DNA of 64,000 bases from an uncultured delta proteobacterium. GTDB lineage: Bacteria; Myxococcota_A; Polyangia; Haliangiales; Haliangiaceae. Shown in pieces: positions 3 to 26,694 of this stretch; position 1 is the first letter of the stretch, and the number at the start of each line of letters is the position of its first letter. The DNA lies in the NCBI GenBank assembly GCA_963772655.1, contig CAVYYE010000003.1, positions 2,737,341 through 2,801,340 on the forward strand, in the 5' to 3' direction. Below the pieces are notes generated by a model, which saw nothing but the letters and a program-made list of their open reading frames with translations, had not been told where the DNA came from and ran no database searches. Both the position numbers and the translations under genes were made by a program.

Positions 3-470
3 GGCATGTACGTGCTGCAGCGCGCGACCGATCCCGATATCGGCCACTTCAGCCTCGCGGTCGAGGACTACGCGCACTCGACCGCGCCCAACCGCCGCTA
101 CCCCGACCTGATCACCCAGCGGCTCCTCAAGGCCACGACCGCCGGGCAGCGGATCCCGTATTCCGACGACGAGCTGATCGCGCTGGCGCTGCACTGCACC
201 GAGCGCGAGAACGCCGCCCGCAAGGTCGAGCGCAAGATGCGCAAGGTCGCCGCCGCCGCGCTGCTGACTCCGCGGATCGGCGAGACCTTCGACGCGATCG
301 TCACCGGCGTCACCGGCAAGGGCACGTTCGCCCGCCTGCTCCATCCACCCGCCGAGGGTCGCGTCGTGAAGGGCGAGGCCAAGCTCGACGTCGGCGACGC
401 GATCCGCGTCAAGCTGGTCGCCACCGAGCCGACCCGCGGGTTCGTCGACTTCGCCGCGGTGACATCGTGA
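3..470 (+). CDS. RNase II/R family 3'-5' exoribonuclease, C-terminal fragment. The gene starts upstream of the window. It includes the RNB catalytic motif region and the S1 domain.
   Basis: The translation ...HFSLAVEDYAHSTAPNRRYPDLITQRLLKA... matches the conserved RNB-domain segment HFGLA...YxHFTSPIRRYxDL of RNase II/R. It is followed by an S1-like segment (GETFDAIVTGVTGKGTFARL). The ORF is open to the window edge. Confidence 0.7.
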   Translation, partial: GMYVLQRATDPDIGHFSLAVEDYAHSTAPNRRYPDLITQRLLKATTAGQRIPYSDDELIALALHCTERENAARKVERKMRKVAAAALLTPRIGETFDAIVTGVTGKGTFARLLHPPAEGRVVKGEAKLDVGDAIRVKLVATEPTRGFVDFAAVTS

Positions 471-1405
471 CCTCACGCCGGCGGAAGGCATCCGACGAGT
501 CGGGGCTCGAGTACATCTTCGACGACATCACGGTCACGTGCACCAACGTCGACCGCATCATGTTTCCCGGCGAGGGGATCAAGAAGTCGGAGGTGATCGG
601 CTACTACCACTTCATCGCCGACTACATGCTGCCCGAGCTCCAGCAGCGTCCGGTGTCGGTCGAGCGCTTCACCAAGGGCATCGATCGGGGCGGGTTCTTC
701 CAGAAGCACTACCAGAAGCACTATCCGGCGTGGCTCGACAAGGAAGAGCTCGGCGAGAAGACCCGTGTCGTCTACCCGATCGTCGACAACACCGCCGGGC
801 TCGTCTACCTCGCGAACCAGGGCTCGATCGCGTTTCACATCTGGACCAGCCGGCGGGACACGCCCGAGTATCCGGACCTGATCGTGTTCGACCTCGACCC
901 GCCCGAGGGTCGGTTCGATCTGGTGCGCCAGACCGCGCTGATCGTTCGCGACCTGCTGGACGAGCTCGGGTTACCGGCGTACGTCAAGACCACCGGGTCG
1001 AAGGGCCTCCACGTGGTGGCGCCGACCGACGGGCGCGCCACCTTCGGCGAGGTGTCGCGGTTCTGCAATCGGGTGGCGAAGCTGTTGTGCGCGCGCCACC
1101 CCGACATCATGACCGTGGAGTTCTACAAGAAGGACCGCAAGGGTCGGCTGTTCTTCGACACGCTCCGCAACGCGCTCGGTGCGACGCTGATCGCACCGTG
1201 GTCGCTACGCGGCCGGCCGGGAGCGCCGATCTCGATGCCGATCCACTGGGACGAGGTCGAGGATCCGGAGCTGCGCCCCAACGGCTTCCTGTTGCGGGAT
1301 ATCCGCAGGCGCCTCGACCAGCGCGGTGACCCGTGGGCCAAGCTGCGCGCACGGGTGGGCTCGCTCGACGATGCGGAAGCCGCGCTCGCCAAGCTCGAAC
1401 CGTGA
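467..1405 (+). CDS. Stand-alone LigD-type NHEJ primase-polymerase domain protein (PolDom).
   Basis: The protein is 312 aa. It has FFQKH and KTTGSKGLHVVAP motifs like the LigD polymerase domain (KTSGGKGLHVYVP). Its GTG start overlaps the upstream TGA in a GTGA arrangement. Confidence 0.75.
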   Translation: MTSRRRKASDESGLEYIFDDITVTCTNVDRIMFPGEGIKKSEVIGYYHFIADYMLPELQQRPVSVERFTKGIDRGGFFQKHYQKHYPAWLDKEELGEKTRVVYPIVDNTAGLVYLANQGSIAFHIWTSRRDTPEYPDLIVFDLDPPEGRFDLVRQTALIVRDLLDELGLPAYVKTTGSKGLHVVAPTDGRATFGEVSRFCNRVAKLLCARHPDIMTVEFYKKDRKGRLFFDTLRNALGATLIAPWSLRGRPGAPISMPIHWDEVEDPELRPNGFLLRDIRRRLDQRGDPWAKLRARVGSLDDAEAALAKLEP

Positions 1406-2312: not shown

Positions 2313-3986
2313 TTGGCCCACATCACGTGGTTCGATCCGCCGCCGGATCGCGCCGCGCTGCCCGCACGGCTGCCATCGCCGTTCGCGGTACCGCCGCACC
2401 CGCTCGCCGAGCGCGCCGCCCGCGAGCTCCGCGATCGCGTGATGCGTGGCGAGCTCGACTCCGATTCCGCCGCGATCGTGGGCGACGCGCGACTCGACGC
2501 ACCCGGTAACGGCAAGATGTTCGGGGTGCTGGTCGTCGCCGACGGTGATGGTCGACTCGGCTATACGTGCGCGTTCTCCGGAATGCTCGGCGGACGGTGG
2601 CACGTGCCGGGCTTCGCGCCGCCGGTGTTCGACGAAGCAGCACGCGATCGGTTCTGGCCGGCCGGCGAAGCGGAGCTCGGCGGGATCGATCGCGAGCTCG
2701 CCACACTCGAGACGCGGATCGCCCCGGTGCGCGACGAGCTCGCGGGCCTCGACGATCGCCACCTCGCCGCACGCGAGCACCTGCGCGCGACCCACCTCGA
2801 ACGCCGGCGACAGCGCCGAGCCCGCCGCGAGGAGATCGCCGGCGATCCGGCCGAGCTGCGCGCGCTCGCGCACGCCAGCAGCGCCGACACCTCCGAGCGC
2901 AAACATCTCCTCGCCGAGCAGCGCGCCGAGCGAGCGCCGATCGCCGAGCGGCTCGTCGCCCTCGAACGCGACGCGACCGCGATCGAGCACCGCAAGGCCG
3001 CGCGGTCGCGCGAGCTCTTGATCGCGATCCACGACACCTACGTGCTCTCCGACGCGCGGGGCGAGCGCCGCACGTTGCGCGAGCTGTTCGCACCCGCCGA
3101 GCCGCCCGGCGGCGCCGGCGACTGCGCGGCTCCCAAGCTGCTGGCGTACGCGTACGCGAACGAGCTGCGTCCGATCGCGTTCGCCGAGATCTGGTGCGGT
3201 GGCCCGCCCGCCGCCGGCGGCCGTCACGACGGCACGCTGTACCCGGCGTGTCGCGGCAAGTGCGGGCCGATCCTGGCCCACGCGCTCGGCGGGCTCGACA
3301 CCGATCCGCTCCCGGTGTTCGGCGTGCCCGTGGTCGGCGATGACGAGCCGCGCACCGTGTTCGAAGACCCATGGCTCGCGATCGTCGACAAGCCGGTCGG
3401 CCTCCTGTCCGTGCCCGGCCGCGGCGATCACCTGCGCGACTCGGTGGCCGTGCGCATGCGCCGGCGCTATCCCGACGCCACCGGTCCCCTGCTGGTCCAC
3501 CGGCTCGACCTCGATACCTCGGGGCTGCTGGTGGTCGCCAAGGACCTCGCGACGTACCACGCGCTGCAGGCGCAGTTCGCGCGCCGCACGATCGACAAAC
3601 GCTACGTCGCGTGGCTCGAGGGCGAGGTCGCGGGCGAGTCCGGAACGATCGATCTACCCCTGCGCGTCGATCTCGACGACCGCCCGCGCAACATCGTCGA
3701 TCCGATCCATGGACGGCCGGCGATCACCGACTGGCGCGTGCTCGAGCGTGCCGGCGGTCGCACGCGGGTCGCGTTGTATCCGCGCACCGGTCGCAGCCAC
3801 CAGCTCCGAGTGCACTGCGCGCATCCGCGCGGGCTCGACGCGCCGATCGTCGGTGATCGGCTGTATGCCCGCGCGCCGCACGACGAGTCGCGCATGCTGC
3901 TACACGCCGAGGCGATCGCGTTCGATCACCCGCACACCGGCGAGCGGATCGCGCTCGAGTGCCCCGCTCCGTGGACGCCGTTGTGA
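2313..3986 (+). CDS. RluA-family pseudouridine synthase with a ~300-aa N-terminal extension.
   Basis: The C-terminal half carries the RluA catalytic core (HRLDLDTSGLLVVAKD...RYVAWLEGEV...). The protein is 557 aa. Its last ~80 codons are re-duplicated downstream in the tandem repeat. Confidence 0.8.
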   Translation: MAHITWFDPPPDRAALPARLPSPFAVPPHPLAERAARELRDRVMRGELDSDSAAIVGDARLDAPGNGKMFGVLVVADGDGRLGYTCAFSGMLGGRWHVPGFAPPVFDEAARDRFWPAGEAELGGIDRELATLETRIAPVRDELAGLDDRHLAAREHLRATHLERRRQRRARREEIAGDPAELRALAHASSADTSERKHLLAEQRAERAPIAERLVALERDATAIEHRKAARSRELLIAIHDTYVLSDARGERRTLRELFAPAEPPGGAGDCAAPKLLAYAYANELRPIAFAEIWCGGPPAAGGRHDGTLYPACRGKCGPILAHALGGLDTDPLPVFGVPVVGDDEPRTVFEDPWLAIVDKPVGLLSVPGRGDHLRDSVAVRMRRRYPDATGPLLVHRLDLDTSGLLVVAKDLATYHALQAQFARRTIDKRYVAWLEGEVAGESGTIDLPLRVDLDDRPRNIVDPIHGRPAITDWRVLERAGGRTRVALYPRTGRSHQLRVHCAHPRGLDAPIVGDRLYARAPHDESRMLLHAEAIAFDHPHTGERIALECPAPWTPL

Positions 3987-5409
3987 CCTGGCTCGCATCG
4001 CGGTTCCGAGGAACCGCTTCGTCGATCCCGGTGTGGCCTCCACGCGGTCACCGACGCAGAGGAGATCGCGTGCACGCTTCGCTGCGCCAGGTGAGGTCCC
4101 CTCGGCGTCTGCCGAACAACTGCAAGCGCCCGCGCGCACGGAGCTAGGTTCGTGCAGGACAGGACCGACCGGCGTAGACACAGCCGCCTCGAGGACCCCA
4201 CCCGGCTTGCCCGCGTTGACGAGATCGCGATCAGTTGCAGGTCGGGAACGCAGGTGACATCGCGATCGGCCGCGCAACATCGGCGATCCGGTCCACGGGT
4301 GACCCGCGGTCACCGACTGGCGCGTGATCGAGCGTGCCGGCGGTCGCACGCGGGTCGCGTTGTATCCGCGCACCGGCCGGAGCCACCAGCTCCGCGTGCA
4401 CTGCGCTCATCCGCACGGGCTCGACGCGCCGATCGTCGGTGATCGGCTACGCCCGCGCACCACACCACGAGCCGCGGATGCTGCTGCACGCCGAGGCGAT
4501 CGCGTTCGATCACCCGCACACCGGCGAGCGGATCGCGCTCGAGTGCCCCGCTCCGTGGACGCCGTTGTGACCTGGCTCGCATCGCGGTTCCGAGGAACCG
4601 CTTCGTCGATCCCGGTGTGGCCTCCACGCGGTCACCGACGCAGAGGAGATCGCGTGCACGCTTCGCTGCGCCAGGTGAGGTCCCCTCGGCGTCTGCCGAA
4701 CAACTGCAAGCGCCCGCGCGCACGGAGCTAGGTTCGTGCAGGACAGGACCGACCGGCGTAGACACAGCCGCCTCGAGGACCCCACCCGGCTTGCCCGCGT
4801 TGACGAGATCGCGATCAGTTGCAGGTCGGGAACGCTGGTGACATCGCGATCGGCCGCGCAACATCGGCGATCCGGTCCACGGGTGACCCGCGGTCACCGA
4901 CTGGCGCGTGATCGAGCGTGCCGGCGGTCGCACGCGGGTCGCGTTGTATCCGCGCACCGGTCGGAGCCACCAGCTCCGCGTGCACTGCGCGCATCCGCGC
5001 GGGCTCGACGCGCCGATCGTCGGTGATCGGCTGTATGCCCGCGCACCGCACGACGAGCCGCGGATGCTGCTGCACGCCGAGGCGATCGCGTTCGATCACC
5101 CGCACACCGGCGAGCGGATCGCGCTCGAGTGCCCCGCTCCGTGGACGCCGTTGTGACCTGGCTCGCATCGCGGTTCCGAGGAACCGCTTCGTCGATCCCG
5201 GTGTGGCCTCCACGCGTCACCGACGCAGAGGAGATCGCGTGCACGCTTCGCTGCGCCAGGTGAGGTCCCCTCGGCGTCTGCCGAACAACTGCAAGCGCCC
5301 GCGCGCACGGAGCTAGGTTCGTGCAGGACAGGACCGACCGGCGTAGACACAGCCGCCTCGAGGACCCCACCCGGCTTGCCCGCGTTGACGAGATCGCGAT
5401 CAGTTGCAG
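3721..5409. repeat. Tandem direct repeat with a 584-bp unit and ~2.9 near-identical copies. Each unit holds the 3' ~250 bp of the RluA-family gene plus ~335 bp of downstream sequence.
   Basis: The phase is seen directly: cgagcgtgccggcggtcgcacgcgggtcgcgttgtatccgcgcacc recurs at ~3740, 4324 and 4908. The C-terminal peptide ...HAEAIAFDHPHTGERIALECPAPWTPL* is re-encoded in ORFs 4334..4570 and 4908..5156. The copies differ by only a few substitutions. Confidence 0.9.
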
Positions 5410-5722
5410 CGATGTTCTCGACGAAACGTGCGACGCGAAGACGAGGCGGATCGATCCGCACTGTCGAACGGTCTCCGATAGTTCGATGCGAACGAGGGTT
5501 GTCGTCGAAAAACTCGATCGCGATGCAGTTTTGCCTTGACGCATCTCGCGGTGCCATCGCGCATCGATCGATGTCGCGAACCTGACGTGCGACCAGCCGC
5601 GTCGTGTGGAGCGCTGCGCGCACGAAATCGCCACGACCGTTTCTCGACGAGAAAATACGAAAACGGCGCACGTGCGCGAATCGAGAGCGTCGAAAACTCG
5701 CGTGGTACAGGAGGCATCTAGC

Positions 5723-5728
5723 AAGGAG
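5723..5728 (+). promoter_or_regulatory. Shine-Dalgarno sequence AAGGAG, 7 nt upstream of the HNH gene ATG.
   Basis: The sequence is gcAAGGAGtgtcgggATG. Confidence 0.5.
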
Positions 5729-5735
5729 TGTCGGG

Positions 5736-7271
5736 ATGGAGTCGACGAACGCGTGCGAGGTAGCGAACACGATCGCGAACGAGCTGCCGGATGAAACGAA
5801 CGCGAGCTGGCGCGAGATCGATCGCCGGCTCGGCACACTGGCGCGGCAACGCTGCGCGCTCGACGCCGAAGAGGCGCGCTGGTTGCGCGCCGCGGCGCGG
5901 TGCCGGATCTGGCAGCAGGTCGGCTGTGCGAGCCTGCTCGATTATCTCGAGCGCCGTCTCGGGTATGGCCCGCGCGCCGCGCAGGATCGCGTGCGGGTCG
6001 CGTTCGCGCTGGAGGAGTTGCCGGCGCTCGCCGACGAGCTCGAGCGCGGCATGCCGTACACCGCGGTGCGCGAGCTCTCTCGCGTCGCCACACGCGACAC
6101 CGAGCACGACTGGATCGCCGCGTGCCGCGGCAAGAACGTCCACGAGATCGAGCGAGCCGTCGCCGGTCACCGGCCCGGCTCGCGTCCGAGCGATCCGGGC
6201 GAGCCCGAGCTCGCCGGGCGACGCTTGCCGCTCGAAGACATCCGCCCGGCCACGCAGGCGGCGTGGCGCGAAGCGCGTCACAAGTTGCAGGCCGCGCGCG
6301 GAACCCACGTTTCCGACGACGAGCTGCTCGCTGCCCTGTGTGGCGTCTATCTCGAAGGCGCCAAAACGCCGGACGACGACGTGAATGCGGGTCGGGCCAA
6401 GTACCAGGTCGCGGTGACCGTGTGCGATCGCTGCCAGCAGGGCTGGCGAGATGGCGCCGGGCGCACGTTCCCGCTCGACGCGGCCGACACCGAGCGCGCG
6501 CTGTGCGACGCCCAGCATCTCGGTGCGCTCGACGGCGAGCCCGCACGCGCCACGCAGGACATCGCACCGCGCGTCCGCCGCTTCGTCGTGCGACGCGATC
6601 GCGGCACGTGCCGCGTGCCCGGTTGTCGATCCGCCGCCAACCTCGAGCTCCATCACATCGTGCCGCGCTCGCGCGGTGGCTCGCACCAGGCGTCCAACCT
6701 GATCCAGCTCTGCGACGGTTGCCACACCGCCCATCACCGCGACCTGATCGACATCGCCGGTACGTCGGACAAGCTCGTGGTGACCCGCCGCCACGAGCTC
6801 GGGCCCGTCGAGCTCGACCCCACCCGCGCCCACGTGGACGCCAGCACCCTCGATCACGCCCACGTGGGCACCGGCACCCTCGACCGCGCCCACGTGGGCG
6901 CAGGCACCCTCGATCGCACCGACGCGGGCGCAGGCACCCTCGACCGCACCGACGTGGGTGCCGGTACCCTCGACCGAACCGACGCGGGCGCCGGCACCAT
7001 CGACCGAACCGGCGCGGGCGCCGGCATCATCGACCGAACCGACGCGGGCGCCGGCATCATCGACCGCACCCACGTCGGCGCGCGACACCGACAGGGCGTG
7101 TTCGATCGCGTGGCCGCGCGAACGCAGGCCCTCGACGCGCTCGTGACGCTCGGCTTCAAACGCCACGAAGCGCGGTCGTACGTCGACGGCGCGATCGCCG
7201 AGCTCGGCCATCGCGCGACGGACCTCGAGGCTCTGTTGCGAGCGGCGCTCCAGCGAGTCCCTCACAGGTAG
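5736..7271 (+). CDS. DUF222/HNH endonuclease family protein (13E12-repeat type). It has a C-terminal 9-aa tandem repeat array and a RuvA domain-III-like tail.
   Basis: The HNH motif is present: CRVPGC...LELHHIVPRSRGG...CDGCHTAHH. An Arg/Ala-rich N-terminal domain resembles DUF222. The C-terminus carries 9 copies of (GAGTLDRTD)-like repeats, then ...ALDALVTLGFKRHEARSYV, which resembles RuvA domain III. The ATG at 5736 is preceded by AAGGAG. Confidence 0.8.
   Translation: MESTNACEVANTIANELPDETNASWREIDRRLGTLARQRCALDAEEARWLRAAARCRIWQQVGCASLLDYLERRLGYGPRAAQDRVRVAFALEELPALADELERGMPYTAVRELSRVATRDTEHDWIAACRGKNVHEIERAVAGHRPGSRPSDPGEPELAGRRLPLEDIRPATQAAWREARHKLQAARGTHVSDDELLAALCGVYLEGAKTPDDDVNAGRAKYQVAVTVCDRCQQGWRDGAGRTFPLDAADTERALCDAQHLGALDGEPARATQDIAPRVRRFVVRRDRGTCRVPGCRSAANLELHHIVPRSRGGSHQASNLIQLCDGCHTAHHRDLIDIAGTSDKLVVTRRHELGPVELDPTRAHVDASTLDHAHVGTGTLDRAHVGAGTLDRTDAGAGTLDRTDVGAGTLDRTDAGAGTIDRTGAGAGIIDRTDAGAGIIDRTHVGARHRQGVFDRVAARTQALDALVTLGFKRHEARSYVDGAIAELGHRATDLEALLRAALQRVPHR
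6837..7083 (+). repeat. Intragenic 27-bp in-frame tandem repeat, ~9 copies, encoding xVGAGTLDR(T/A)D.
   Basis: The unit ggcaccctcgaccgcaccgacgcgggcgcc and variants are visible directly. The array keeps the reading frame of the HNH gene. Confidence 0.85.
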
Positions 7272-7619
7272 ACCGGCGTCCCGAGAAGTTCGTCGCTCCC
7301 GGAGAGCGCGCGTTCGCATCAGGCGACTGGCGCTCGTGGGCCGCGCGCCCGCAGTCACCGCTCCGAGGCAAGGATCGACGCGACCGATGCCAACCGGCGC
7401 GGCCAAGAAGCCAGGACCACGCTCCGCGTTCTCTCCACCGCGAAGCCAAGAGCCCACGATCGCGCCCGCGTGGGTTCCGACGTGTGAGGGACTAACCCAG
7501 GTCTTGATCTTCCTCTCTCCTCGAGAACATCGTTCTCGTCCCTGGAGCGCCCGCCCCACCGATGCCGACCGGGATCCGCAAAGCCAGCAGCACGCTTCCC
7601 GTTTCCTGCGGTGCGTACG

Positions 7620-7763
7620 ACTCGATCGGCTTGCCCGCGTTGACGAGATCGCGATGCGCCGATCGTCGGTGATCGGCTGTATGCCCGCGCGCCGCACGAC
7701 GAGCCGCGCATACTGTCACACGAGGCGATCGCGTTCGATGACCCGCACACCGGCGAACGGCTC
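7620..7763 (+). repeat. Degenerate partial copy of the RluA 3'-end repeat. It is older and more diverged than the 3721..5409 copies.
   Basis: cttgcccgcgttgacgagatcgcgat is followed by gcgccgatcgtcggtgatcggctgtatgcccgcgcgccgcacgacgagccgcgcatactg.... This encodes APIVGDRLYARAPHDEPRIL.HEAIAFDDPHTGERLVFE. It has ~80-85% identity to the copies at 3840-3960 and 5000-5120. Confidence 0.75.
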
Positions 7764-7856
7764 GTGTTCGAGCGACTCGCCACGTTCCGAGTCCTCTACC
7801 GGATCCTGAAGACGGCGGGGTTGACACCCTGCACCCTGTCTCGGATCTTCGTTGCG

Positions 7857-8693
7857 TTGTCCCGTTCGTGTTGGCTCGTGCTGCTCGCCGCGTGTTCGTC
7901 AGCCGCGACCGCGCCACCGCGTTCGGAGACTCCCACATCGGTCGCGCCGTCCCCGCGAGTCCGGGCGCCCGCCTCCGACGAGCTCGCGCGCTCGCCGACG
8001 CTGCAACCACTTGCCTGGTTACTGGGCACGTGGTCCGGGAACGGCGCCGAGGTCACGTTCGCGGCCGTCGAGGGCGCGATCTACGGTGTCGAGATCGGAA
8101 GCGACGGCCACGTCGATCTCGTCGTGCTGGACGATGGCGAGGGGCGCAAACCCGCCGACGGTACGCTCCGCTGCTTCGTGCTTCCCGGCGCCGAGGTGGT
8201 CGACGACCGTCCCTGCGCGCTCCACGATCGGGTGCTCGAGCTCGACGATACGCGGTACTCGCTCGTCGGCGACGGCCTCTCGATGACGCGGGGCGCACGA
8301 ACCGTGGTGCTGTCGCCCGCCTCTCCGTCGTCCGCGCCCGCGATCGCCGCCGCCGATCGCGCGTTCTCGCAGGCAACGCGCGAGCATGGCGTCGCCGGTT
8401 GGGTCGGTGCGTTCGCGACCGACGGGGCGATGATCTCCGAGGCCGGCAAGATCGCCGGCGCCAAGGCGATCGAGGAGGAGATGTCCGCGTTCCTCGCTGC
8501 CGGTACGCTCGCGTGGGCGCCGAACGTCAGCGGCCAGCACGCCGGCGTCGGCTACACGATCGGCAAGGCCACCTACACGCCGAAGTCCGCCACTGCCAAG
8601 CCGTTCGGCACGACCTACGTCACGCTGTGGAAGCGCGAAGGCGACGCGTGGAAGGTCGCGCGTGACACCGGTCGCGCCGTCAACGCACCGTGA
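7857..8693 (+). CDS. Lipoprotein with a C-terminal SnoaL-like/DUF4440 (NTF2-fold) domain.
   Basis: A signal peptide plus lipobox (WLVLLAAC) follows a TTG at 7857. The upstream in-frame extension to ATG 7764 is the read-through tail of the degenerate RluA fragment, so the 7857 start is preferred. The alternative is 7764. The C-terminal WAPNVSGQHAGVGYTIG...TTYVTLWKREGDAWKV pattern is typical of the NTF2-like fold. Confidence 0.6.
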   Translation: MSRSCWLVLLAACSSAATAPPRSETPTSVAPSPRVRAPASDELARSPTLQPLAWLLGTWSGNGAEVTFAAVEGAIYGVEIGSDGHVDLVVLDDGEGRKPADGTLRCFVLPGAEVVDDRPCALHDRVLELDDTRYSLVGDGLSMTRGARTVVLSPASPSSAPAIAAADRAFSQATREHGVAGWVGAFATDGAMISEAGKIAGAKAIEEEMSAFLAAGTLAWAPNVSGQHAGVGYTIGKATYTPKSATAKPFGTTYVTLWKREGDAWKVARDTGRAVNAP

Positions 8694-8709: not shown

Positions 8710-9360
8710 CTAGTCGCACGCCGGAAACGCCGCGGTCATCGCGGCGAACGTGTTCTGCGTGGTGCCGCCGCACCGGCAGTCCGCGGGCTGCCCTGCCTGG
8801 TCGACGCACGGCACTTCCTCGTCGACGAACGACCGCGTGGGTGCGCAGTCCTGCGACAGGTCGAGGAAGTCGTTGCAGTTGGCACCGATCGACAGGTTGG
8901 CCGCCATCTCCGCGTAGCCGATCAGCGCCATCTGGCAGGCGCGCACCGCGGTGGGGAGCGCGTCGCCGAACACGAACTCGAGCTGGTGACCGGGACGGCA
9001 GCTCGCCGGCACCACCATCGTCGTGCCCGCAGATCCCGCCCAGTACGTCGTCGTGAACACGATCTCGACGTGCGGCACCGCGCCGGGATCCGTCTCGACG
9101 ATCTGGATCGGGAACGGCGCCAGCCCACCGCGGATGCACGCCGCCGTCTCGGCAAAATCGGGCCGGCTGTACGGCGGCAACTGCATCGGCCCGTCGACGA
9201 GCAGGCTGAGGTTCTGGATCGCGTCGTCGAACGTCCCGGCATCGTACGCACCGCCGCCGGCGTTGAGGTACAGGATCGCCGGCTGACACGCGGCGTCTGC
9301 CGATGGCGCGTCACCACCGCCGCAACCGAGGGCGAGCACGAGGACCGCGGCGGCACGCAC
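8710..9360 (-). CDS. Cys-rich secreted lipoprotein, hypothetical.
   Basis: A GTG start leads into a signal peptide plus lipobox (RAAAVLVLALGC). The mature part has 12 Cys. The overlapping plus-strand ORF 8662..9564 is Arg-rich antisense noise. Confidence 0.6.
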   Translation of the reverse strand: MRAAAVLVLALGCGGGDAPSADAACQPAILYLNAGGGAYDAGTFDDAIQNLSLLVDGPMQLPPYSRPDFAETAACIRGGLAPFPIQIVETDPGAVPHVEIVFTTTYWAGSAGTTMVVPASCRPGHQLEFVFGDALPTAVRACQMALIGYAEMAANLSIGANCNDFLDLSQDCAPTRSFVDEEVPCVDQAGQPADCRCGGTTQNTFAAMTAAFPACD

Positions 9361-9606
9361 CCCTCCAGTGTACGCCGGTCGCGTCCAGCAAGTGAACCCA
9401 ACTGCTCGCTCGCTACTTCGCCTCCAGCATCCGTCGAGCTGCTTGCCGGCACGACGAGGCGAAGGCGCGGCTCGAACGACTCGCGAAGTCACTCGACGAG
9501 CAACGCCTGGCGCCGCGTGGTCGCTGCGCGAGGCTCGACGAGACGCTCGCGGATCCTCGCCTGATGCAAAAGCACGAACGGGAGCTATGTCTTGGTGCGC
9601 GAGGCG

Positions 9607-10176
9607 ATGAGAACCACCCAGTTTGTCGTCCAAGCGTCGATCGCCTGCGTGATCGTCGCGGTGCTCCCGACGTGTTCGGGCGGCGGCACGTCCGCAGCGG
9701 CGACGGTCAACGGTCAGCCGCTACAGCCGCTCGCAGAGGGCGAACTGAAGCTGATCTTCGGCCCGAAGCCCGACGACACGATCCTCGTTCACATCGATGG
9801 CTCTTTCGAGGTCGTGCATCCGGAGCACGCGTCCATGCGTGCGTGCGGAGGAGACTGTTCACGGCGCGTCGAACGGTTCACCGTCACGGGAGACAAGATC
9901 GTACAGGGCTCCCGCGAGCTGTTGTCGCGGGCCGCCAACGGTAACGTCGACATGTGGGGACTCGGCCAGATCACGATCGATCACGATGGCGTGCTCATCC
10001 AGTCCGGGCAGCGGCGCGCCGTCGATCCGAGCGGTCGCTTGCCACACGCCGACGGCCAGCCCGACGTGACGATCGTCGGCGCGACGACACCGGAGTTGCG
10101 CCGACGCGCGATGCTCGTCCTCGTGTTCGTCAACCTCGCAACGGCGGCGTCGGCTCTCGATCAAGCGTCTCATTGA
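9607..10176 (+). CDS. Hypothetical secreted protein or lipoprotein.
   Basis: The ATG is at 9607. The N-terminal hydrophobic segment is QASIACVIVAVLPTC. No recognisable domain was found. Confidence 0.5.
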   Translation: MRTTQFVVQASIACVIVAVLPTCSGGGTSAAATVNGQPLQPLAEGELKLIFGPKPDDTILVHIDGSFEVVHPEHASMRACGGDCSRRVERFTVTGDKIVQGSRELLSRAANGNVDMWGLGQITIDHDGVLIQSGQRRAVDPSGRLPHADGQPDVTIVGATTPELRRRAMLVLVFVNLATAASALDQASH

Positions 10177-10490
10177 CCGAGCGCGAGCCGTACGAACAGG
10201 ATCGCGAGCGATACGCACGCTCACCCTCATCCGGCCCCACGCCGAAATACACCAGCTCGTGAGTGCCGATGATCATTCGATCGTCCAGGACCGGAGGCGA
10301 CGCCGTCGAGCACGAGCCCGGCAGCCGAAAACCACCTGGCTCACTTCGTCTCGAGGAACCAACTCTTCTTGGCCTTGGGTGCCGTGTCGAAGTCGGACAT
10401 GACGGACCTGTCGACCGTAACCGTCATCGGTTGCGCCGTTTCAGACGCCCGGCAGGACTGTTGCCTACGCCTGCTCGTTAGTGCCGATGA

Positions 10491-12818
10491 TCATTCGATC
10501 GTCCACGCCGATGGCGGGACGTGGAACTTCGTCGTGCCGGTCTCGATCAGCGAGGCACCACCGTGCAGCGACCCGGCGAGCGTCGGGATCACCTTGTACT
10601 TGGCGTTGAAGGTCTGACCGGGCTGCAGCGGGTTGACGTAGAGGTCGACCTTGCCGTCGGCGATCTGGAACCGCGACAGCTGACCCGAGTCGACGAGCGC
10701 CTCGAGGCTCGGGCGGTCGGGTTGCACGCCCGCGGGCAGTGCGTGCTGGATGTGGACCGGGCGACCCGACGGCGCGATGGCGACGAGCGGCACGTCGATC
10801 GGACGGCCGACCTTGCCGGTCAGCGTGTCGGGGAGCGACAGCTCGAGACCCTTCTGCGTGGTCTGCTTCTCCCAGGGCACCCACGCCTGGAGCGTGAGCG
10901 CGTAGCCGAGGCCGGGGACGGCAGGATCGGCGGCGATCGTCCACTCGTGCGAGCCCGACAGACCGGAGGCGGCACCGTCGAGCACGAGCACGTCCTTGAG
11001 CTGCGTGCTGTCGAACTGCCCGGTCGCGACCGGCGTGCCGTCCATCGCGAGGGTGATCTTCACCGACGACGGCAACGGCGACTTGAACAGCTTCAGGATC
11101 GCGCGCATGCACGACAGGTTCGTGATGCCGTCACCCCAGCCGTAGACCGGCGTGTAGCCCGACAGCAGCGTGGTCCCGAGATCGGCGAGCGGCGCGTTCT
11201 TCACACCCTCGAGCGCGAGCACCGCGAGCGCGGTGGCCTCGACGCGCGACGGCCGCCTGCCATCGGCGCGCACCACGTTCTCGGCGACCTCGAGGAACTT
11301 CGCGCCGTCGGTCGTGGCCTCGATCGCGTCGAGGACCCGCTTCCGCAGGGTCGTGGCGAGCGTCGACTTCGGATCGATCGCGCCGCTCGCGAGGATCGCC
11401 GCGGCGGTGTAGCCGTCGGTGACCTGCTCGGAAGTGCGAGCGAATGCACCCTGCGCCTTGGCCCGCACGCCCATCGCGCGCTGACGAGCGCGCGCCTCGG
11501 AGCTCGGATCGATGCTGGCCGTCGCCGCACGCGTGGCGTCGGCGGTGGTCACCAGCACGCGCTGCAACGTCCACCCGGTCGCACCGGAGAACGTGCCGTC
11601 GGGTCGCTGGTGCTGCGCGAGGTAGGCCTCCGCGCGCTCGCCGAGTCGCGACAGCACCGGGTTACCCGGATGCGAGAGTGCGGCCTCGGCGAGCATGGTC
11701 GCGCGCGTGACGTCGAGCGTGCGACCGTGATGGATCGCGCGCTGCGCGGTGACCAGCGACAGCTCGCGCAGGACATCGGGATCGGGCTTGTCGCCGAGCT
11801 GGAGCAGGAGCTTGGGCGCCACGCCGGCGAGAAGTAGCGCGTAGCTATCCTCGGCGACGCCCGCGCGGGCGACCGACACGCCGAGCTCGGAGCGCAGCAC
11901 CGCGAGCGCGCCCGGGTACACCAGGAGCCGCACGCGATCGGTGCTCGGGTCGGAGCCCGCCGGACCTTCGATCGTGGCCTTGCGCGGCGCGGCCAGCGTG
12001 CCCGAGCGTGTCACGGTCACCGGCTTGCCCGACGGGATCACGTCGATCGTGTGTGCGACGGCATCGGTGCCACCGAGCGCGACCCGCAACGCGATCGTGC
12101 CGGCGCGGTTCGCAGTCAGCGTCGCGTAGTCGACGAGGTTGCCCCGCGCCGGGATCGACTTCGGTCCACCACCACCGGCGAGCTGGGCACCTTCGATCTG
12201 GTAGCTCAGGTTCGCCGTGATCGGCTTGTCGGTGGTGTTGACCATCTGCACCGGCAACCGGATCTTGTCGCCGGCGATCAGGAACGGCGGCACCACGGGA
12301 TCGACGTAGCTCGGTAGCGTGCCGAGGAAGCTGGTCGTCGCGCCGGCCTGCGCACCGGTACGCGAGTGCGCGAGTGCGAGCACGCGCCACGTCGTCAGGC
12401 GATCGGGTACGTGCACCGGTACGGTCGCGGCACCCGCGTCGTCGGTGACGACCAGCGGCTCGAACAGGAAGCTCTCGGGAAACCACGAGCGCGTCGGGGT
12501 CTCCGCCGCGTCGTCGGCCGGGCCCGCCGCCCCGTTGATCGTCTTGGACGCGGGCTTCTTGGGGGGCATGGACTTCGCGTCCATGTGTCCCCTCGTGCGT
12601 TCGTTCTTGCCCATCTTCCCTTCGTCCATCGCCATGGCGGTCCCGGCACCGCCCGCCATGTCGTCGCCGTCGAGCTCCTTCTGCGCCTCGGCGACCGCGG
12701 CCGGCCTGTCGGCCATCGGCTCCTCGGGAGCCTTGTCGGAGGTGGAGGTTGCATCCTTCGCGTTGCACGACAGCGCGAGCGCCGCGACGGCGAGGGTTGT
12801 CCGCATCGAACCTCTCAT
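10491..12818 (-). CDS. Alpha-2-macroglobulin family protein, C-terminal half (bait-region-like low-complexity N-terminus, FPETWLW-like motif, TED/receptor-binding region). No CxEQ thioester motif is present.
   Basis: The motif WFPESFLFEP matches the FPETWLW motif that follows the bait region in A2M. The protein is ~775 aa from ATG 12818. That start (MRGSMRTTLAVAALALSC) overlaps the upstream stop in an ATGA arrangement. A search for CGEQ/CxEQ found nothing. Confidence 0.7.
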   Translation of the reverse strand: MRGSMRTTLAVAALALSCNAKDATSTSDKAPEEPMADRPAAVAEAQKELDGDDMAGGAGTAMAMDEGKMGKNERTRGHMDAKSMPPKKPASKTINGAAGPADDAAETPTRSWFPESFLFEPLVVTDDAGAATVPVHVPDRLTTWRVLALAHSRTGAQAGATTSFLGTLPSYVDPVVPPFLIAGDKIRLPVQMVNTTDKPITANLSYQIEGAQLAGGGGPKSIPARGNLVDYATLTANRAGTIALRVALGGTDAVAHTIDVIPSGKPVTVTRSGTLAAPRKATIEGPAGSDPSTDRVRLLVYPGALAVLRSELGVSVARAGVAEDSYALLLAGVAPKLLLQLGDKPDPDVLRELSLVTAQRAIHHGRTLDVTRATMLAEAALSHPGNPVLSRLGERAEAYLAQHQRPDGTFSGATGWTLQRVLVTTADATRAATASIDPSSEARARQRAMGVRAKAQGAFARTSEQVTDGYTAAAILASGAIDPKSTLATTLRKRVLDAIEATTDGAKFLEVAENVVRADGRRPSRVEATALAVLALEGVKNAPLADLGTTLLSGYTPVYGWGDGITNLSCMRAILKLFKSPLPSSVKITLAMDGTPVATGQFDSTQLKDVLVLDGAASGLSGSHEWTIAADPAVPGLGYALTLQAWVPWEKQTTQKGLELSLPDTLTGKVGRPIDVPLVAIAPSGRPVHIQHALPAGVQPDRPSLEALVDSGQLSRFQIADGKVDLYVNPLQPGQTFNAKYKVIPTLAGSLHGGASLIETGTTKFHVPPSAWTIE

Positions 12819-23764: not shown

Positions 23765-26524
23765 GACGCGGCCCCCTTTCCGTCGACGACGGGTTGTACG
23801 CGCTGGCGTCTCATCCACGCGAACCCGATCACGGCACCGAGCAGCACGATGGCGATCACCGCGTTGATGACCTTCCAGTTGTCGCGCTGGTCGGGATCGA
23901 GGGTGATCGCGTGCGCCGTGGCATCGTGCCCGCGGATCGACAGCAGGTCGGTATCGGCGAATGCCCAGTCGACCGCGTTGTGGATCAGGCCGATGTTGGC
24001 GAGCGCGAGGTCTTGCTCGAATTGCTGCGCGTGGCTCATCAGCGCGTCGGTGGCGAACACCGACGAACCGAACACCACGATCCGCGTGTCCTTGGGCGAG
24101 CGCTCGAGGATCGGGGTCTTCGAAATCACCCTTCTTCAGCGAGCTGTGGAACGAGCCGACGATCGACACGGCGAGCGGGTGACTGCCGCGCTGTGCATCG
24201 ACCGGCGGAGGGAACCCCTTCTCGGGATCCGGTTCGACGCTGAGCGACGACGACAGCCACGACTCGTCGGACGACGAGAGCAACACGTCGACGTCGTGCT
24301 CGTCTTCGCCGACCTTCGCCTTGGCCTCGACCGGCGATCCGAAGTGCATCACCGCGCCGGGGATGCCGCCGGTGATCAGCGACGACGACATCTGGTCGCC
24401 GCTGACCTTCACGAAGAACGGATACGGGATCTGCTTGAACTCCTGCACCATCATCCCGCCACCGACGTCGCGCATCTGCGGGATCGGGAACGTCTCGCTC
24501 TTGGTATCGAGCACGAGCTTGTTGTCGACGGCGATGCCCCACGACTCGAACAGCTTCTCGAGGCCCGTGGTCACCTTCTCGATCGAGATGCCGCGCCCCG
24601 GCGCGAGTCGGAACCGCCCGTCGAGAACGACCAGCGAACCGCCGCGCATCACGAACTGATCGATGTTCTTGACCGAGCCGGCATCGAGGTCGGCGGGACC
24701 GCACAACACCAGGACGTCGATGTCGTCGGGAACCCGGCCTCCGAGATCGACGTCGCGGACGTCGTAGTTGCCGGCCAGTGACTGTCGCAGCGACTTGAAC
24801 GACTGCGGTGGTGGCTGGCGCTGCATGCCCTGCGGCCCCGGCGTCGACGGTGCCGGCGGCGTCCACATCCCGACCACCTTGGTGAAGCCCGGTGCGCCGC
24901 GCTTGATGCCATCGACGATCGCCGACTTGAGGCCGGCCTCACCGGTGGTATCGGGGAGCTGGATGCGAACGGTCTTGTCGCCGAGCTCGACGATCACCGC
25001 GTAGTAGTAGTTCTTGCCGCTGAGCAGCTCCGAGTACGGCCGCAGCCCATACTTCTGATACAGGTCGATCATCTCCGACTCGCCCTTCGGCGAGACCGTG
25101 CTGACCGTGAGCTTGCCGCCGGACTCCTTGGCGATCTCGGCGGTGACCTTGTCGAGCTTCTTCTTCGCTCCCTTGAGGTTGTCGGGGAGCGTGTCGGGCG
25201 TGATGTAGACCGTCAGCTTCGCCGTGCCCGGGATCGACGCGAACAGCGACCCCATGCTCGAGAACGCCTCGACCGTCTTCTTGATCGCCTTGGTGAGCTG
25301 GTACTCGTCGTTGCGCAGCGTGATCTCGATCTTGTGGAGCTCGGGCTGTCGGACCTGGATCAGGTCCATCAGGTTGAGCACCTGGTGCTGGTCGCCGTAC
25401 TGGATCGCGATCGAGAAGTACGCGTTGACTACCGAGCGGCCGCTCGTGGTCGCGAACTCCATCGGCGACGGGCTGATGTCGTAGAGCTCCTTGGCCGCGC
25501 GCTTGGCCTCGTCGTCGTCGGTCGGGTCGATGATCTGGAGATCGACCTTGCCGTTGCCCGCGGCCTCGTACTCTTCGAGCAGATCCTTCAATTGCGGGAT
25601 CAGGGGCGCGAGATCCGGGTGGGTGTCCTTGCTGATGTACGCGCGGATGTGGAGCTTCTCGTCGAGCCCGGACACCAGCTTGCGGGTCGTGCTCGACAGG
25701 CTGTACGCGCCGTCCTGCGTGAGATCGATGCGGGCACTCCGCACCGGCGCGAGCCAGACGTCGAGCGCGATCGCGTTGACCGCGAGCAGCGCCACCGTGA
25801 GCAGGAGGTCGAACCGCCGCTTGCGTGCCGGCGGGCTGTTGCCCCACGACACCCGTCCGATCAACACGACGTTGATCCCGAAGCCGACGACGATGATCCC
25901 CGCGTAGTACGCGAGGTCGCGGAGGTCGAGCACGCCACGCGCGACGCTCTCGAACCGCGCGCCGGTTCCGAGCAGCCGGCCGATGTCACCGAGATCGCCG
26001 ATCACGTACGTGAACACGCACACCAGCGCGGTGCCGACGAACGCGACGATCTGGATGCTGGTCGCCGCCGAGATGCACATGCCGATCACGAGGTACGCGG
26101 CCGACAGCAGCAGCGCCGCGAAGTAACCGCCGATCACCGGACCGGTGTCGAGGTTGCCCATGTGCGCGACGGTGAACGGGATGCCGAGCGTGAGGCCGAG
26201 CGCGATCGCGATCAGCAACATGCCGGCGGCGAACTTGCCGGCCACGAGCTTCCAGCGCGGGACCGGTAACGTCAGCAGCACCTCGAGGGTGCCCGCGCTG
26301 CGCTCCTCGGACCACAGCCGCATCGCCAGGGCCGACACCAGGATGATGAGCAGCTTCGGCATCCACTCGAACAGCGGACGCAGATCGGCGAGCCCGCGCG
26401 CGAAGAACTTCTCGTACCAGAAGAACGTGTAGAGAACGCCGACCAGGAACGCGCCGAGGAAGATCAGCGCGACGGCGGAGTTGAAGTAGCCACGAAGCTC
26501 CTTCTTCGCGATCGTCCAGATCAT
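23761..26524 (-). CDS. Fused ABC-2 permease (GldF-like) and GldG-like accessory domain protein. The reading frame is broken by a 1-nt frameshift near 24126..24170.
   Basis: The N-terminal permease sequence is MIWTIAKKELRGYFNSAVALIFLGAFL, with multiple TM segments. A large GldG-like soluble domain follows. The C-terminal TM anchor (WKVINAVIAIVLLGAVIGFAWMRRQR) is encoded in a shifted frame (ORF 23761..24129). Confidence 0.7.
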
Positions 26525-26694
26525 CGTTCACCTCCGCGCGAGCCCCGGCCGGGCATACGTTCGAGCTCGTTCGTGACCGCGCGCTGCGGCCGTGTCTCGC
26601 CTCCGGTCATCGTTCACCTCCGCGCGAGCCCCGGCCGGGCATACGTTCGAGCTCGTTCGTGACCGCGCGCTGCGGCCGTGTCTCGCCTCCAGTC
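26523..26694. repeat. 86-bp tandem duplication (2 copies, 1 mismatch). It covers the whole gldA-gldFG intergenic module, including the SD sequence and start codon.
   Basis: Copy 1 is 26523..26608 and copy 2 is 26609..26694. This is seen directly in the sequence. Each copy, read on the minus strand, is an ATGA-bounded 30-codon mini-ORF (MTGGETRPQRAVTNELERMPGRGSRGGER). Confidence 0.9.

What the first reader, a model, noticed from the sequence alone, without database searches (positions are those of the whole stretch)
3721..5409. 584-bp tandem array (~2.9 copies) that repeatedly re-encodes the last ~80 codons of the RluA-family gene
Each unit is the 3' ~250 bp of the pseudouridine synthase gene plus ~335 bp of downstream non-coding DNA. 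The copies are nearly identical, so the amplification is recent. Such duplications of a gene's 3' end are typical of the att sites left by site-specific integration, or of unequal crossing-over. The alternative is assembly mis-collapse or over-expansion. No integrase gene is present.
Basis: seen in the sequence. Interest (0 to 1): 0.65.

Follow-up and report, generated by a model that had tools for sequence, protein, structure and literature searches.

The report
Displaced rluA gene-tail array beside HNH gene
The last ~100 codons of a pseudouridine-synthase gene plus ~275 bp of downstream DNA really are repeated three times head-to-tail. The array abuts a multi-copy selfish HNH endonuclease gene with a fourth, decayed gene tail beyond it, so it is most likely a recombination scar from foreign DNA repeatedly replacing the gene's end, not an integrase att site or a functional element.

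Summary
TRF finds one array at 3677-5409, period 584, 3.0 copies, 96% matches. Each unit holds the last 310 nt of an intact RluA-family gene (2313-3986), 254 nt of non-coding DNA ('D') and a 22-nt junction.

- The array ends exactly where the leader of a DUF222-like HNH+RuvA_C endonuclease gene (5736-7271) begins.
- A fourth, decayed rluA tail (7652-7790) lies beyond that gene, preceded by 29 nt identical to the end of D.
- The copies are mosaic: 17% diverged over the first 65 nt, about 4-9% over the next 161 nt, and identical over the last 338 nt.

Differences between the inner tails and the gene fall mainly at third codon positions, so they look allelic. The fourth tail looks like neutral decay. 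Orthologous loci in relatives have no array and no HNH gene. The HNH gene is multi-copy in the source genome and in Kofleriaceae MAGs. One independent locus (L016) has the same gene-tail duplication around its HNH gene, with only synonymous differences.

Best reading (about 0.5): a C-terminal-displacement scar made by homology-anchored insertion of HNH-bearing DNA, then extended by unequal exchange. No integrase gene and no known RNA family were found. Interest is moderate.

The parts
2313..3986 (+). Intact RluA-family pseudouridine synthase gene (557 aa from the first start codon). Its last 310 nt form the coding part of unit 1.
   Evidence: PF00849 E=9e-30. TIGR00005 and RluA models match. 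71% and 65% aa identity to orthologs with conserved upstream synteny.
3677..4262 (+). Unit 1: functional gene tail 3677-3986, non-coding D 3987-4240, junction J 4241-4262.
4263..4846 (+). Unit 2: pseudo-tail 4263-4570 (in-frame TGA plus a 2-nt deletion), D 4571-4824, J 4825-4846.
   Evidence: 95.6% identical to unit 1. Stop codon and frameshift.
4847..5409 (+). Unit 3: pseudo-tail 4847-5156 (same in-frame TGA), D 5157-5409. It lacks J and abuts the HNH leader.
   Evidence: 96.8% identical to unit 1. One 1-nt deletion in D.
5372..5400 (+). 29-mer CGGCTTGCCCGCGTTGACGAGATCGCGAT at the end of D. Exact copies also at 4203-4231, 4787-4815 and 7627-7655.
   Evidence: 4 exact matches against 0 expected.
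5410..5735 (+). Non-coding leader (U) of the HNH gene, 59% GC.
   Evidence: No codon-position GC signature. No Rfam hit. Fold z-score -0.08 when folded together with D.
5736..7271 (+). DUF222-like HNH endonuclease with a C-terminal RuvA_C domain (511 aa). Multi-copy selfish gene. Contains a 30-nt in-frame tandem repeat at 6824-7089.
   Evidence: PF01844, PF14279 and PF07499. DUF222 at 20.8 bits, below threshold. Paralogs P0001-4, P0121 and P0122. 60 loci in Kofleriaceae and other Myxococcota MAGs. 80.5% nt identity to L064, ending at the stop codon.
7272..7626 (+). Non-coding spacer (P) between the HNH stop codon and the 29-mer. Origin unknown.
   Evidence: No coding signature. Not shared with L064. 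No significant similarity to the unit.
7652..7790 (+). Fourth, displaced and decayed rluA tail, corresponding to gene 3836-3972. The first ~48 nt are identical to the gene; the rest is ~15% diverged with indels.
   Evidence: 87.9% over 132 nt. 10 non-synonymous vs 1 synonymous codon change, a 3-nt deletion and a 5-nt insertion. 68% aa identity to the L061 tail, against 83% for the unit tails.
7764..8693 (+). Downstream lipoprotein-like gene (weak DUF4440 match). This is the resident flank that follows the displaced tail.
   Evidence: GC3 0.86. PF14534 E=1.5e-4.
8710..9633 (-). Homolog (8716-9360) of the 218-aa gene that directly follows rluA, convergently, in relatives. It marks the far side of the lineage-specific insert.
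   Evidence: tblastn 74% identity over 217 aa. L061 gene table.

Best explanation
The array is a non-functional recombination scar at the 3' end of a housekeeping gene, of the 'C-terminal displacement' kind.

Proposed sequence of events:
1. DNA carrying an rluA tail, its downstream non-coding segment D and a selfish DUF222-like HNH endonuclease gene recombined into the resident rluA. The gene tail served as the homologous anchor.
2. The incoming tail became the working end of the gene. The resident tail was pushed downstream and decayed (7652-7790).
3. A second junction (J joined to position 3677) arose and was copied once by unequal exchange, giving the two inner units.
4. Gene conversion keeps the 3' 338 nt of the units identical.

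The nuclease plausibly supplies the DNA breaks that start these events (one-sided homing, i.e. homology-facilitated illegitimate repair). A LigD gene for end joining lies 2.5 kb upstream.

Shown: the anatomy, the mosaic divergence, the allelic-type substitutions, absence of the insert in relatives, multi-copy status of the HNH gene, and one independent parallel locus.

Inferred: that the nuclease drives the events, their order, and that D travels with the HNH gene.
For: 1. Array and fourth copy.
2. The array's right end (5409/5410) is the same nucleotide of D that joins J in units 1 and 2, and there it joins the HNH leader.
3. Divergence is mosaic. Unit 1 vs units 2/3 shows 11 differences in 65 nt, 6-14 in 161 nt and 0 in 338 nt. 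P~2e-7 under uniform decay. Non-coding D is less diverged than the coding tail.
4. 11 of 17 and 15 of 23 substitutions are at codon position 3 (p=0.008 and 0.002). Synonymous vs non-synonymous codons are 10:6 and 14:8. Several replacements match the ortholog state, for example the V of PVHG (L061) and the P of DEPR (L061 and L062).
5. Copy 4 has the opposite spectrum: 2 of 13 at position 3, 1 synonymous vs 10 non-synonymous, plus indels. Fisher p=0.01.
6. Orthologous loci L061-L063 keep the RNB-LigD-kinase-rluA synteny but have a convergent gene at the rluA stop, no repeat and no HNH gene.
7. The HNH gene is multi-copy: 6 protein variants on 3 large contigs, and 24 loci in one Kofleriaceae MAG, sharing a ~1-kb leader.
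8. Independent parallel in L016: the last 37 codons plus stop of the upstream gene are repeated beyond the HNH gene. The encoded peptide is identical, with 6 synonymous differences and TAG vs TGA.
9. L026 and L033 have 2-5 tandem copies of the module just upstream of their HNH leader, and L026 has another copy beyond the gene.
10. Tandem repeats lie within 1.5 kb upstream of the HNH gene in 14 of 33 loci, against 11 of 66 control segments.
11. The upstream neighbour is co-oriented in 37 of 50 loci (p=9e-4).
12. Precedents in the literature: one-sided homing with illegitimate double-strand-break repair (PMC2988022), and homology-facilitated illegitimate recombination with strings of orphaned 3' regions at T6SS and rhs loci (PMC5361080).
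Against: - The other HNH copies of the source genome could not be read, so it is unproven that D belongs to the mobile unit.
- What paralogs share is only a leader plus the HNH ORF, ending at the stop codon. The repeat-bounded insert is therefore larger than the HNH core, and the gene could be a passenger.
- Clear gene-tail duplication was seen in only 2 of about 45 loci with both flanks.
- The third-position bias is only suggestive against a model in which the functional copy and the pseudo-copies diverged in situ. My own rough estimate puts the expected share at ~46% against 65% observed, which would give p of about 0.09; this was not computed with a tool.
- The loci used for the tandem-repeat enrichment include many paralogs from one genome, so they are not independent.
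- The first 48 nt of copy 4 and its 29-mer are identical to their counterparts while the rest is old, which needs an extra conversion or crossover step.
- No cleavage specificity is known for this nuclease.
Confidence: 0.5

Rival explanations
1. An ordinary segmental tandem duplication. An illegitimate join (4240 to 3677, with 22 nt of filler) duplicated the gene end and its downstream DNA. Unequal sister-chromatid exchange then added a third copy. The neighbouring HNH gene is incidental, and later allelic recombination in the working gene produced the synonymous differences.
For: Units 2 and 3 share an identical junction and the same diagnostic sites, as expected from unequal exchange. The homogeneous 3' part fits gene conversion within tandem repeats. 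Tandem repeats are common in these GC-rich genomes (controls). The HNH core shared by paralogs does not include D.
Against: It does not explain the fourth, much older tail beyond the HNH gene with the 29-mer of D. It does not explain why the array ends to the nucleotide where the HNH leader begins. Neutral D is less diverged than the coding tail. The L016 parallel has synonymous-only differences.
Confidence: 0.25
2. Tandem accretion at an attB site. Integrase-type integrative elements that carry a substitute rluA 3' end integrated repeatedly and then decayed, losing their integrase, so the repeats are attL/attR remnants.
For: Direct repeats of a gene 3' end flank inserted DNA and gene integrity is preserved. 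A 48-nt block is identical between the gene (3840-3887) and copy 4. Relatives carry PF10136 'SpecificRecomb' genes 1-2 genes downstream of rluA.
Against: No integrase, recombinase or transposase in 1-27 kb. The PF10136 genes are absent from the whole window. The two kinds of junction start at different gene positions (3677 and 3838), so there is no single core. The inner 'elements' are only 276 bp of non-coding DNA. The only ORF in the insert is an HNH nuclease.
Confidence: 0.08
3. An assembly artefact: over-expansion, or mis-joining of allelic variants of a single-copy region.
For: 338-nt stretches are identical between units, which is hard to resolve with short reads. No reads were available for checking.
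Against: Each unit has private variants: 17 sites in unit 1; 6 substitutions and a 2-nt deletion in unit 2; a 1-nt deletion in unit 3. The flanks are also distinct: gene body, J or HNH leader. The parent contig is reported as 2.89 Mb, which suggests a high-contiguity assembly. A separate diverged fourth copy exists.
Confidence: 0.05
4. A functional RNA or guide array. The leader, with the adjoining host-gene tail, is transcribed by read-through and guides or regulates the HNH nuclease, by analogy with IscB/TnpB omega-RNAs whose guide comes from the flank. The repeated units would then be functional modules.
For: The HNH domain is closest to IscB-type HNH (NCBIfam 2e-14; PDB IscB hits). Paralogs share long conserved non-coding leaders. 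In four loci of that MAG the shared block starts at the stop codon of a long upstream ORF. Upstream genes are co-oriented in 37 of 50 loci.
Against: No RuvC or PLMP region is matched, only the HNH part. No Rfam family (HEARO included) is hit even at E<=1. D and the leader fold no better than shuffles, z = -0.4 and -0.1. The RNAalifold covariation term is only -0.64 on 23 leaders. Tails 2 and 3 are decaying.
Confidence: 0.05

Closest known systems
C-terminal displacement arrays ('orphan' 3' modules) at rhs, cdiA and T6SS effector loci, attributed to homology-facilitated illegitimate recombination (PMC5361080 and references there)
   Same: An intact gene is followed by a string of displaced 3' fragments, each with its own downstream segment. 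The newest is next to the gene and the oldest is farthest and most decayed. The copies look allelic rather than duplicated in situ. Homology in the gene acts as the anchor.
   Different: The gene is a housekeeping pseudouridine synthase with no diversifying C-terminus. The displaced tails are almost the same sequence. The downstream modules are non-coding, not immunity genes. Two of the units are copies of each other. An HNH nuclease gene sits inside the array.
Free-standing HNH homing endonuclease genes and one-sided homing by illegitimate double-strand-break repair (phage T4; PMC2988022 citing Parker et al. 1999)
   Same: A lone HNH ORF lies between host genes and is present or absent at orthologous loci. 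It is multi-copy and fast-evolving. Flank co-conversion and microhomology junctions are expected outcomes of break repair with homology on one side only.
   Different: The setting is bacterial chromosomes, not phage. The architecture is DUF222-like N-terminus, HNH, decapeptide repeats and RuvA_C. No target site or cleavage has been shown. Dozens of copies sit at unrelated loci.
REP13E12 / DUF222-HNH repeats of Mycobacterium tuberculosis (PMC10589994)
   Same: A dispersed multi-copy gene encoding a DUF222-type HNH protein, with no known transposase. Many homologs of the window protein carry PF02720.
   Different: The window protein scores below the DUF222 threshold and carries RuvA_C. Association with host-gene 3' ends and tandem leader modules has not, to my knowledge, been described for REP13E12.
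attL/attR duplications of gene 3' ends by tyrosine-integrase islands, and their tandem accretion
   Same: The gene 3' end is duplicated on both sides of inserted DNA and the gene is kept intact.
   Different: No integrase, no common core position, and long, diverged, mosaic repeats.
IscB / IS200-IS605 omega-RNA-guided nucleases
   Same: A related HNH domain, and a long conserved non-coding region upstream of the ORF.
   Different: No RuvC or PLMP domain, no HEARO/omega-RNA match, and no support for a structured RNA.

Membership tests
Integrase-mediated integrative element (att duplication) | Tyrosine or serine recombinase gene at one end of the insert | tested here: not met
   Pfam scans of ORFs across 1-27 kb show none. 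The PF10136 genes of relatives are absent from the window.
Integrase-mediated integrative element (att duplication) | The same short identical core at every junction | tested here: not met
   Junctions fall at gene position 3677 (units 2 and 3) and 3838 (copy 4). A 48-nt identical block is present only for copy 4.
Free-standing homing endonuclease gene | Intact HNH catalytic and zinc motif in a lone ORF | tested here: met
   PF01844 and PF14279. The CxxC...HH...N...CxxCH...HH pattern is visible in the alignment. Codon-position pattern against L064 is 63/47/106.
Free-standing homing endonuclease gene | Presence/absence polymorphism at orthologous loci | tested here: met
   L061, L062 and L063 have rluA with no HNH gene and no repeat. 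These are distant relatives only (65-71% aa identity).
Free-standing homing endonuclease gene | Site-specific cleavage of the element-free allele | not testable with these tools
   Needs an enzyme assay.
IscB-type RNA-guided nuclease | Split RuvC domain and PLMP domain around the HNH | tested here: not met
   The NCBIfam IscB model matches only profile positions 144-242 of 314. PDB IscB hits cover residues 279-337 only.
IscB-type RNA-guided nuclease | Upstream omega-RNA (HEARO) | tested here: not met
   No Rfam hit at gathering score or at E<=1. Fold z-scores near 0.
DUF222-HNH (REP13E12-like) | PF02720 N-terminal domain | tested here: inconclusive
   20.8 bits against a cut-off of 24.4, E=2.7e-4. 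Several homologs carry a precomputed PF02720.
DUF222-HNH (REP13E12-like) | Dispersed multi-copy distribution within a genome | tested here: met
C-terminal displacement array | Intact gene followed by co-oriented orphan 3' fragments with their own downstream segments | tested here: met
C-terminal displacement array | Orphan fragments derive from other alleles, not from in-situ duplication | tested here: inconclusive
   Third-position and synonymous bias, and ortholog-like replacements. The test against an in-situ model is weak.
C-terminal displacement array | Variable C-terminal domains with cognate downstream genes | tested here: not met
   The tails encode the same RluA end and the downstream D is non-coding.
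Simple tandem segmental duplication | Uniform divergence along the unit | tested here: not met
   17%, then 4-9%, then 0% in three consecutive blocks. P~2e-7.
Diversity-generating retroelement (TR/VR at a gene 3' end) | Reverse transcriptase nearby and differences confined to template adenines | tested here: not met
   No RT in 1-27 kb. Only 8 of 17 differences involve an A, and these are split between both copies.

The most novel reading that the evidence does not exclude
The HNH+RuvA_C genes of Kofleriaceae may be an undescribed class of selfish element. They would dock directly after the stop codon of a co-oriented host gene and destabilise the adjoining DNA. The results would be tandem leader modules and, as here and in L016, duplicated or displaced host-gene ends. 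Host-gene read-through transcripts or the RuvA_C domain (RuvB recruitment) might be part of the mechanism.
Probability: 0.2. Interest if true: 0.65.

Novelty: new variant of a known kind. Interest (0 to 1): 0.4.

Why it matters
If the reading is right, gene-end displacement is not confined to polymorphic toxin loci. It can also hit a housekeeping gene when a selfish nuclease gene lodges behind it. It would also point to a poorly known, highly proliferative DUF222-like HNH gene family in myxobacteria. That family is related to the unexplained REP13E12 repeats of M. tuberculosis, and its insertion rule and way of spreading are unknown. For genome annotation, the extra 78-82-aa 'RluA' ORFs in the array are pseudogene fragments.

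Tried and rejected
- Exact-protein look-ups of the window's RluA and HNH proteins and of the HNH paralogs found no contigs. The source genome is also not among the genome-contig loci. The other HNH copies of this genome therefore could not be read.
- A search with a spurious antisense ORF spanning D and the leader, meant to catch paralogous copies, found nothing.
- The metagenome scan gave only 5 distant loci, with no informative repeats.
- Known RNA families gave no hit. tRNA/tmRNA as an integration target is rejected: there is only a doubtful 97-nt kb away.
- D as a structured RNA is rejected, with z-scores of -0.4 and -0.08. D, the leader and the spacer as coding sequence are rejected, with a flat codon-position GC.
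- D as a MITE with terminal inverted repeats is not significant.
- The leader U or spacer P as decayed further copies of the unit, and J as a decayed rluA segment, give z of 2-3 with similar values on the reverse strand. They are not significant.
- A structured leader RNA in the 23-copy MAG family has an RNAalifold covariation term of -0.64 only.
- DGR, IscB and integrase readings each failed on a defining feature (see the membership table).
- A defence-system reading is rejected: PADLOC hits cover only the HNH domain.
- No promoter-like or terminator-like sites were found in 3600-8000.
Full report
OBSERVATION

The tandem array is real. TRF run with a long maximum period reports 3677-5409, period 584, 3.0 copies, 96% matches, score 3266. 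This is the largest tandem repeat in the window by an order of magnitude. The default TRF run missed it only because of its 500-nt period limit. BLASTN gives 95.6% identity (586 nt) and 96.8% identity (564 nt) to the first unit. The repeat finder gives spacings of 584-586.

The gene is an intact RluA-family pseudouridine synthase, 2313-3986 (PF00849 E=9e-30; TIGR00005 and RluA models). Each unit consists of:
- 254 nt of non-coding DNA, here called D;
- a 22-nt junction, here called J.

D shows no codon-position GC signature. It folds no better than shuffled sequence (z = -0.44). It matches no Rfam family even at E<=1.

First, the third unit lacks J. It stops at 5409, at exactly the nucleotide of D (after ...CAGTTGCAG) where J follows in units 1 and 2. 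Beyond that point lie a 326-nt, 59%-GC non-coding leader and a 511-aa gene at 5736-7271. That gene encodes an HNH endonuclease with a C-terminal RuvA domain-III-like module (PF01844, PF14279, PF07499). Its N-terminus is a sub-threshold DUF222 match (20.8 bits against a cut-off of 24.4).

Second, 355 nt past the HNH stop codon there is an exact copy of the last 29 nt of D before CAGTTGCAG. There are four exact copies in the window and none are expected by chance. This copy is fused directly to a fourth rluA tail, 7652-7780, which is 88% identical to gene positions 3836-3967.

Third, the units are mosaic:

| Gene positions | Length | Unit 1 vs units 2/3 |
|---|---|---|
| 3677-3741 | 65 nt | 11 differences (17%) |
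| 3742-3902 | 161 nt | 6 differences (unit 3), 14 (unit 2) |
| 3903-4240 | 338 nt | 0 substitutions; one 1-nt deletion in unit 3 |

Seventeen differences with none in the last 338 of 564 nt has P~2e-7 under uniform divergence. The presumably neutral D is therefore younger or more homogenised than the coding tail. A single duplication followed by decay would predict the opposite.

NATURE OF THE DIFFERENCES

Between the gene tail and units 3 and 2, 11 of 17 and 15 of 23 substitutions fall at third codon positions (p=0.008 and 0.002 against one third). Synonymous codons outnumber non-synonymous ones, 10:6 and 14:8. Several replacements reproduce the state seen in orthologs, for example the V of 'PVHG' (L061) and the P of 'DEPR' (L061 and L062).

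Units 2 and 3 are nevertheless dead. They share an in-frame TGA, and unit 2 also has a 2-nt deletion.

Copy 4 has the opposite spectrum: 2 of 13 substitutions at position 3, 1 synonymous against 10 non-synonymous codons, a 3-nt deletion and a 5-nt insertion. Fisher p=0.01 against unit 3. Its protein identity to the L061 ortholog tail is 68%, against 83% for the unit tails.

My reading is that copy 4 is an old, neutrally decaying remnant. The inner tails look like sequences that diverged from the present gene while still coding, so they are allelic. My own rough estimate, not computed with a tool, is that a model where the working copy and the pseudo-copies diverge in place predicts about 46% third-position changes. 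The observed 65% is therefore suggestive rather than decisive.

CONTEXT

Two orthologous loci were found through RluA homologs: P0123 at 71% and P0126 at 65% aa identity. They keep the upstream synteny RNase II-like, LigD primase-polymerase, Ser/Thr kinase, rluA. In both, a convergent gene follows directly at the rluA stop. They have no repeat and no HNH gene.

The homolog of that 218-aa convergent gene lies at 8716-9360 (-) in the window, and the alpha-2-macroglobulin gene at 10494-12797 (-). About 4.7 kb between the rluA stop and that gene is therefore lineage-specific. Copy 4 sits where the original rluA end would be expected, next to the resident downstream flank. No integrase, transposase or reverse transcriptase is encoded in 1-27 kb.

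THE HNH GENE IS A PROLIFERATING SELFISH GENE

The protein database holds the identical protein (P0001) and five further variants:
- P0121 and P0122, more than 90% identical;
- P0002, P0003 and P0004, 70-76% identical by BLASTP to the window protein.

These sit on contigs of 2.89, 2.68 and 0.79 Mb from NCBI/ENA, four of them on the same 2.89-Mb contig. They differ in the number of decapeptide repeats, which are encoded by the 30-nt tandem repeat at 6824-7089.

A scan of representative genomes returned 60 loci, nearly all in Kofleriaceae and other Myxococcota MAGs. Twenty-four of them come from one MAG, JACKDR01. In that MAG the copies share about 1 kb of non-coding leader plus the ORF. In L025, L026, L030 and L041 the shared block starts at the stop codon of a long, co-oriented upstream ORF with a strong coding signature. 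Across all loci the upstream neighbour is co-oriented in 37 of 50 cases (p=9e-4).

What close relatives share ends at the HNH stop codon. This holds for the window against L064, at 80.5% nt identity, and for L016 against its paralogs. The mobile core is thus leader plus ORF. It is not shown that D belongs to it.

The gene is under some constraint: differences against L064 are 63, 47 and 106 by codon position.

PARALLELS ELSEWHERE

In L016, from a different MAG, the last 37 codons plus stop of the upstream lipoprotein gene are repeated 490 nt beyond the HNH gene. The two copies encode the same peptide. They differ at six third positions and in the stop codon, TAG against TGA. That pattern means two alleles kept by selection, not an in-situ duplication that then decayed.

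In L026 the roughly 100-nt module just after the upstream stop codon occurs twice in tandem and once more beyond the HNH gene. In L033 it occurs five times in tandem.

Tandem repeats of period 25 or more occur within 1.5 kb upstream of the HNH gene in 14 of 33 full-length loci, against 11 of 66 control segments (p=0.007). Many of these loci are paralogs from one genome, so they are not independent.

Clear host-gene-tail duplication is rare. It was seen in the window and in L016, out of about 45 loci with both flanks.

MECHANISM

The simplest account is the one proposed for strings of orphaned 3' regions at rhs and T6SS loci. Incoming DNA pairs with the conserved part of a gene, its far end joins illegitimately, and the resident end is pushed downstream (PMC5361080). 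For homing endonucleases, the same one-sided outcome at microhomologies is documented experimentally in phage T4 (PMC2988022, citing Parker et al. 1999).

Applied here:
1. HNH-bearing DNA with an rluA tail and D replaced the working end of the gene. This left copy 4 behind; its junction is 29-mer|3838, with CGA microhomology.
2. A second junction, J|3677, arose.
3. Unequal exchange duplicated that junction, since units 2 and 3 share both the junction and the diagnostic sites.
4. Gene conversion homogenised positions 3903-4240.

That the nuclease itself makes the initiating breaks is inference. So is a role for the adjacent LigD gene or the RuvA_C domain. The exact order of events cannot be recovered. 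In particular, the first 48 nt of copy 4 and its 29-mer are identical to their counterparts while the rest of copy 4 is old, which needs an extra crossover or conversion.

RIVALS

- A plain tandem duplication with an incidental HNH neighbour (0.25) explains units 2 and 3. It does not explain copy 4, the coincidence of the array end with the HNH leader, or the mosaic divergence.
- Integrase att accretion (0.08) fails on the missing recombinase and on the two different junction positions.
- An assembly artefact (0.05) is unlikely given private variants in every unit. It needs reads to exclude.
- A functional RNA or guide array (0.05) is suggested by the IscB-like HNH domain and by the conserved leaders. 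It has no support from Rfam, folding or covariation.

VERDICT

The feature is real. It is most probably a non-functional displacement and duplication scar at a housekeeping gene, linked to a selfish DUF222-like HNH gene. It is a new variant of known kinds (C-terminal displacement; one-sided homing). Interest is moderate, and lies mainly in the little-studied HNH gene family and its habit of sitting directly after host-gene stop codons.

Noticed in passing
window 6824-7089 (inside the HNH gene): A 30-nt in-frame tandem repeat, 8.8 copies at 86% matches, encodes decapeptide repeats (DRTDAGAGTL-like) between the HNH and RuvA_C domains. Copy number differs among the paralogs (P0121 longer, P0002-P0004 shorter).
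   Followed up: partly
L025, L026, L030, L041 (JACKDR01 Kofleriaceae MAG), about 4770-5010: The block shared by HNH paralogs begins at the stop codon of a long co-oriented upstream ORF ('C TGA GCCGCGCG', with a TAG variant in L030). The TGA also occurs in internal tandem copies of the block in L033. So the element may supply the stop codon or may target stop codons.
   Followed up: partly
L022, L023, L027, L034, L039, L040, L045, L053: In many loci a 120-400-nt segment of the HNH leader recurs in inverted orientation downstream of the HNH gene (72-96% identity). This looks like long terminal inverted repeats, or like a second unit reading the other way. The window copy has no such inverted repeat.
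   Followed up: no
L016 4689-4808 and 7694-7813: The last 37 codons plus stop of a lipoprotein gene are duplicated around an HNH-containing insert. The encoded peptide is identical, with six synonymous differences and TAG vs TGA. A 256-aa ORF (4892-5662) lies inside the insert.
   Followed up: yes
JACKDR01 leaders (e.g. L030 5101-5398, L025 about 5130-5300): The leaders contain runs of 8-9-nt microsatellite-like repeats (GGACGTGGT and GCGGGGAC types) of very variable length between copies. They also hold invariant hairpins (TGTCCGG...CCGGACA; GGCGCCGGGCCC...GGGCCCGGCGCC) and a conserved CTTGACG motif about 150 nt before the ATG.
   Followed up: partly
window 9633-10491, compared with L061 8318-12311 and L062 7581-9617: Relatives carry one or two PF10136 'SpecificRecomb' genes between the 218-aa gene and the alpha-2-macroglobulin gene. 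These genes are absent from the whole 64-kb window.
   Followed up: partly
window 10013-10109 (-): ARAGORN calls a 97-nt tRNA-Thr(CGT), but Rfam finds no tRNA anywhere in the window at gathering score. It is probably a false positive.
   Followed up: no
window 467-1405 (+): A LigD primase-polymerase domain gene (PF21686, E=1e-85) lies about 2.3 kb upstream of the array and is syntenic in relatives. The lineage therefore probably has end-joining repair, which is relevant to illegitimate junctions.
   Followed up: no
window 7656-8693: The decayed fourth rluA tail is in frame with, and runs without a stop codon into, the downstream lipoprotein-like ORF (lipobox LLAAC). ORF callers may therefore predict an N-terminally extended chimeric protein.
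   Followed up: no
window 26515-26698 and 35168-35490: Other tandem repeats: period 86 (2.1 copies, 96% matches), and periods 36-42 (73-82% matches). They appear unrelated to the finding.
   Followed up: no
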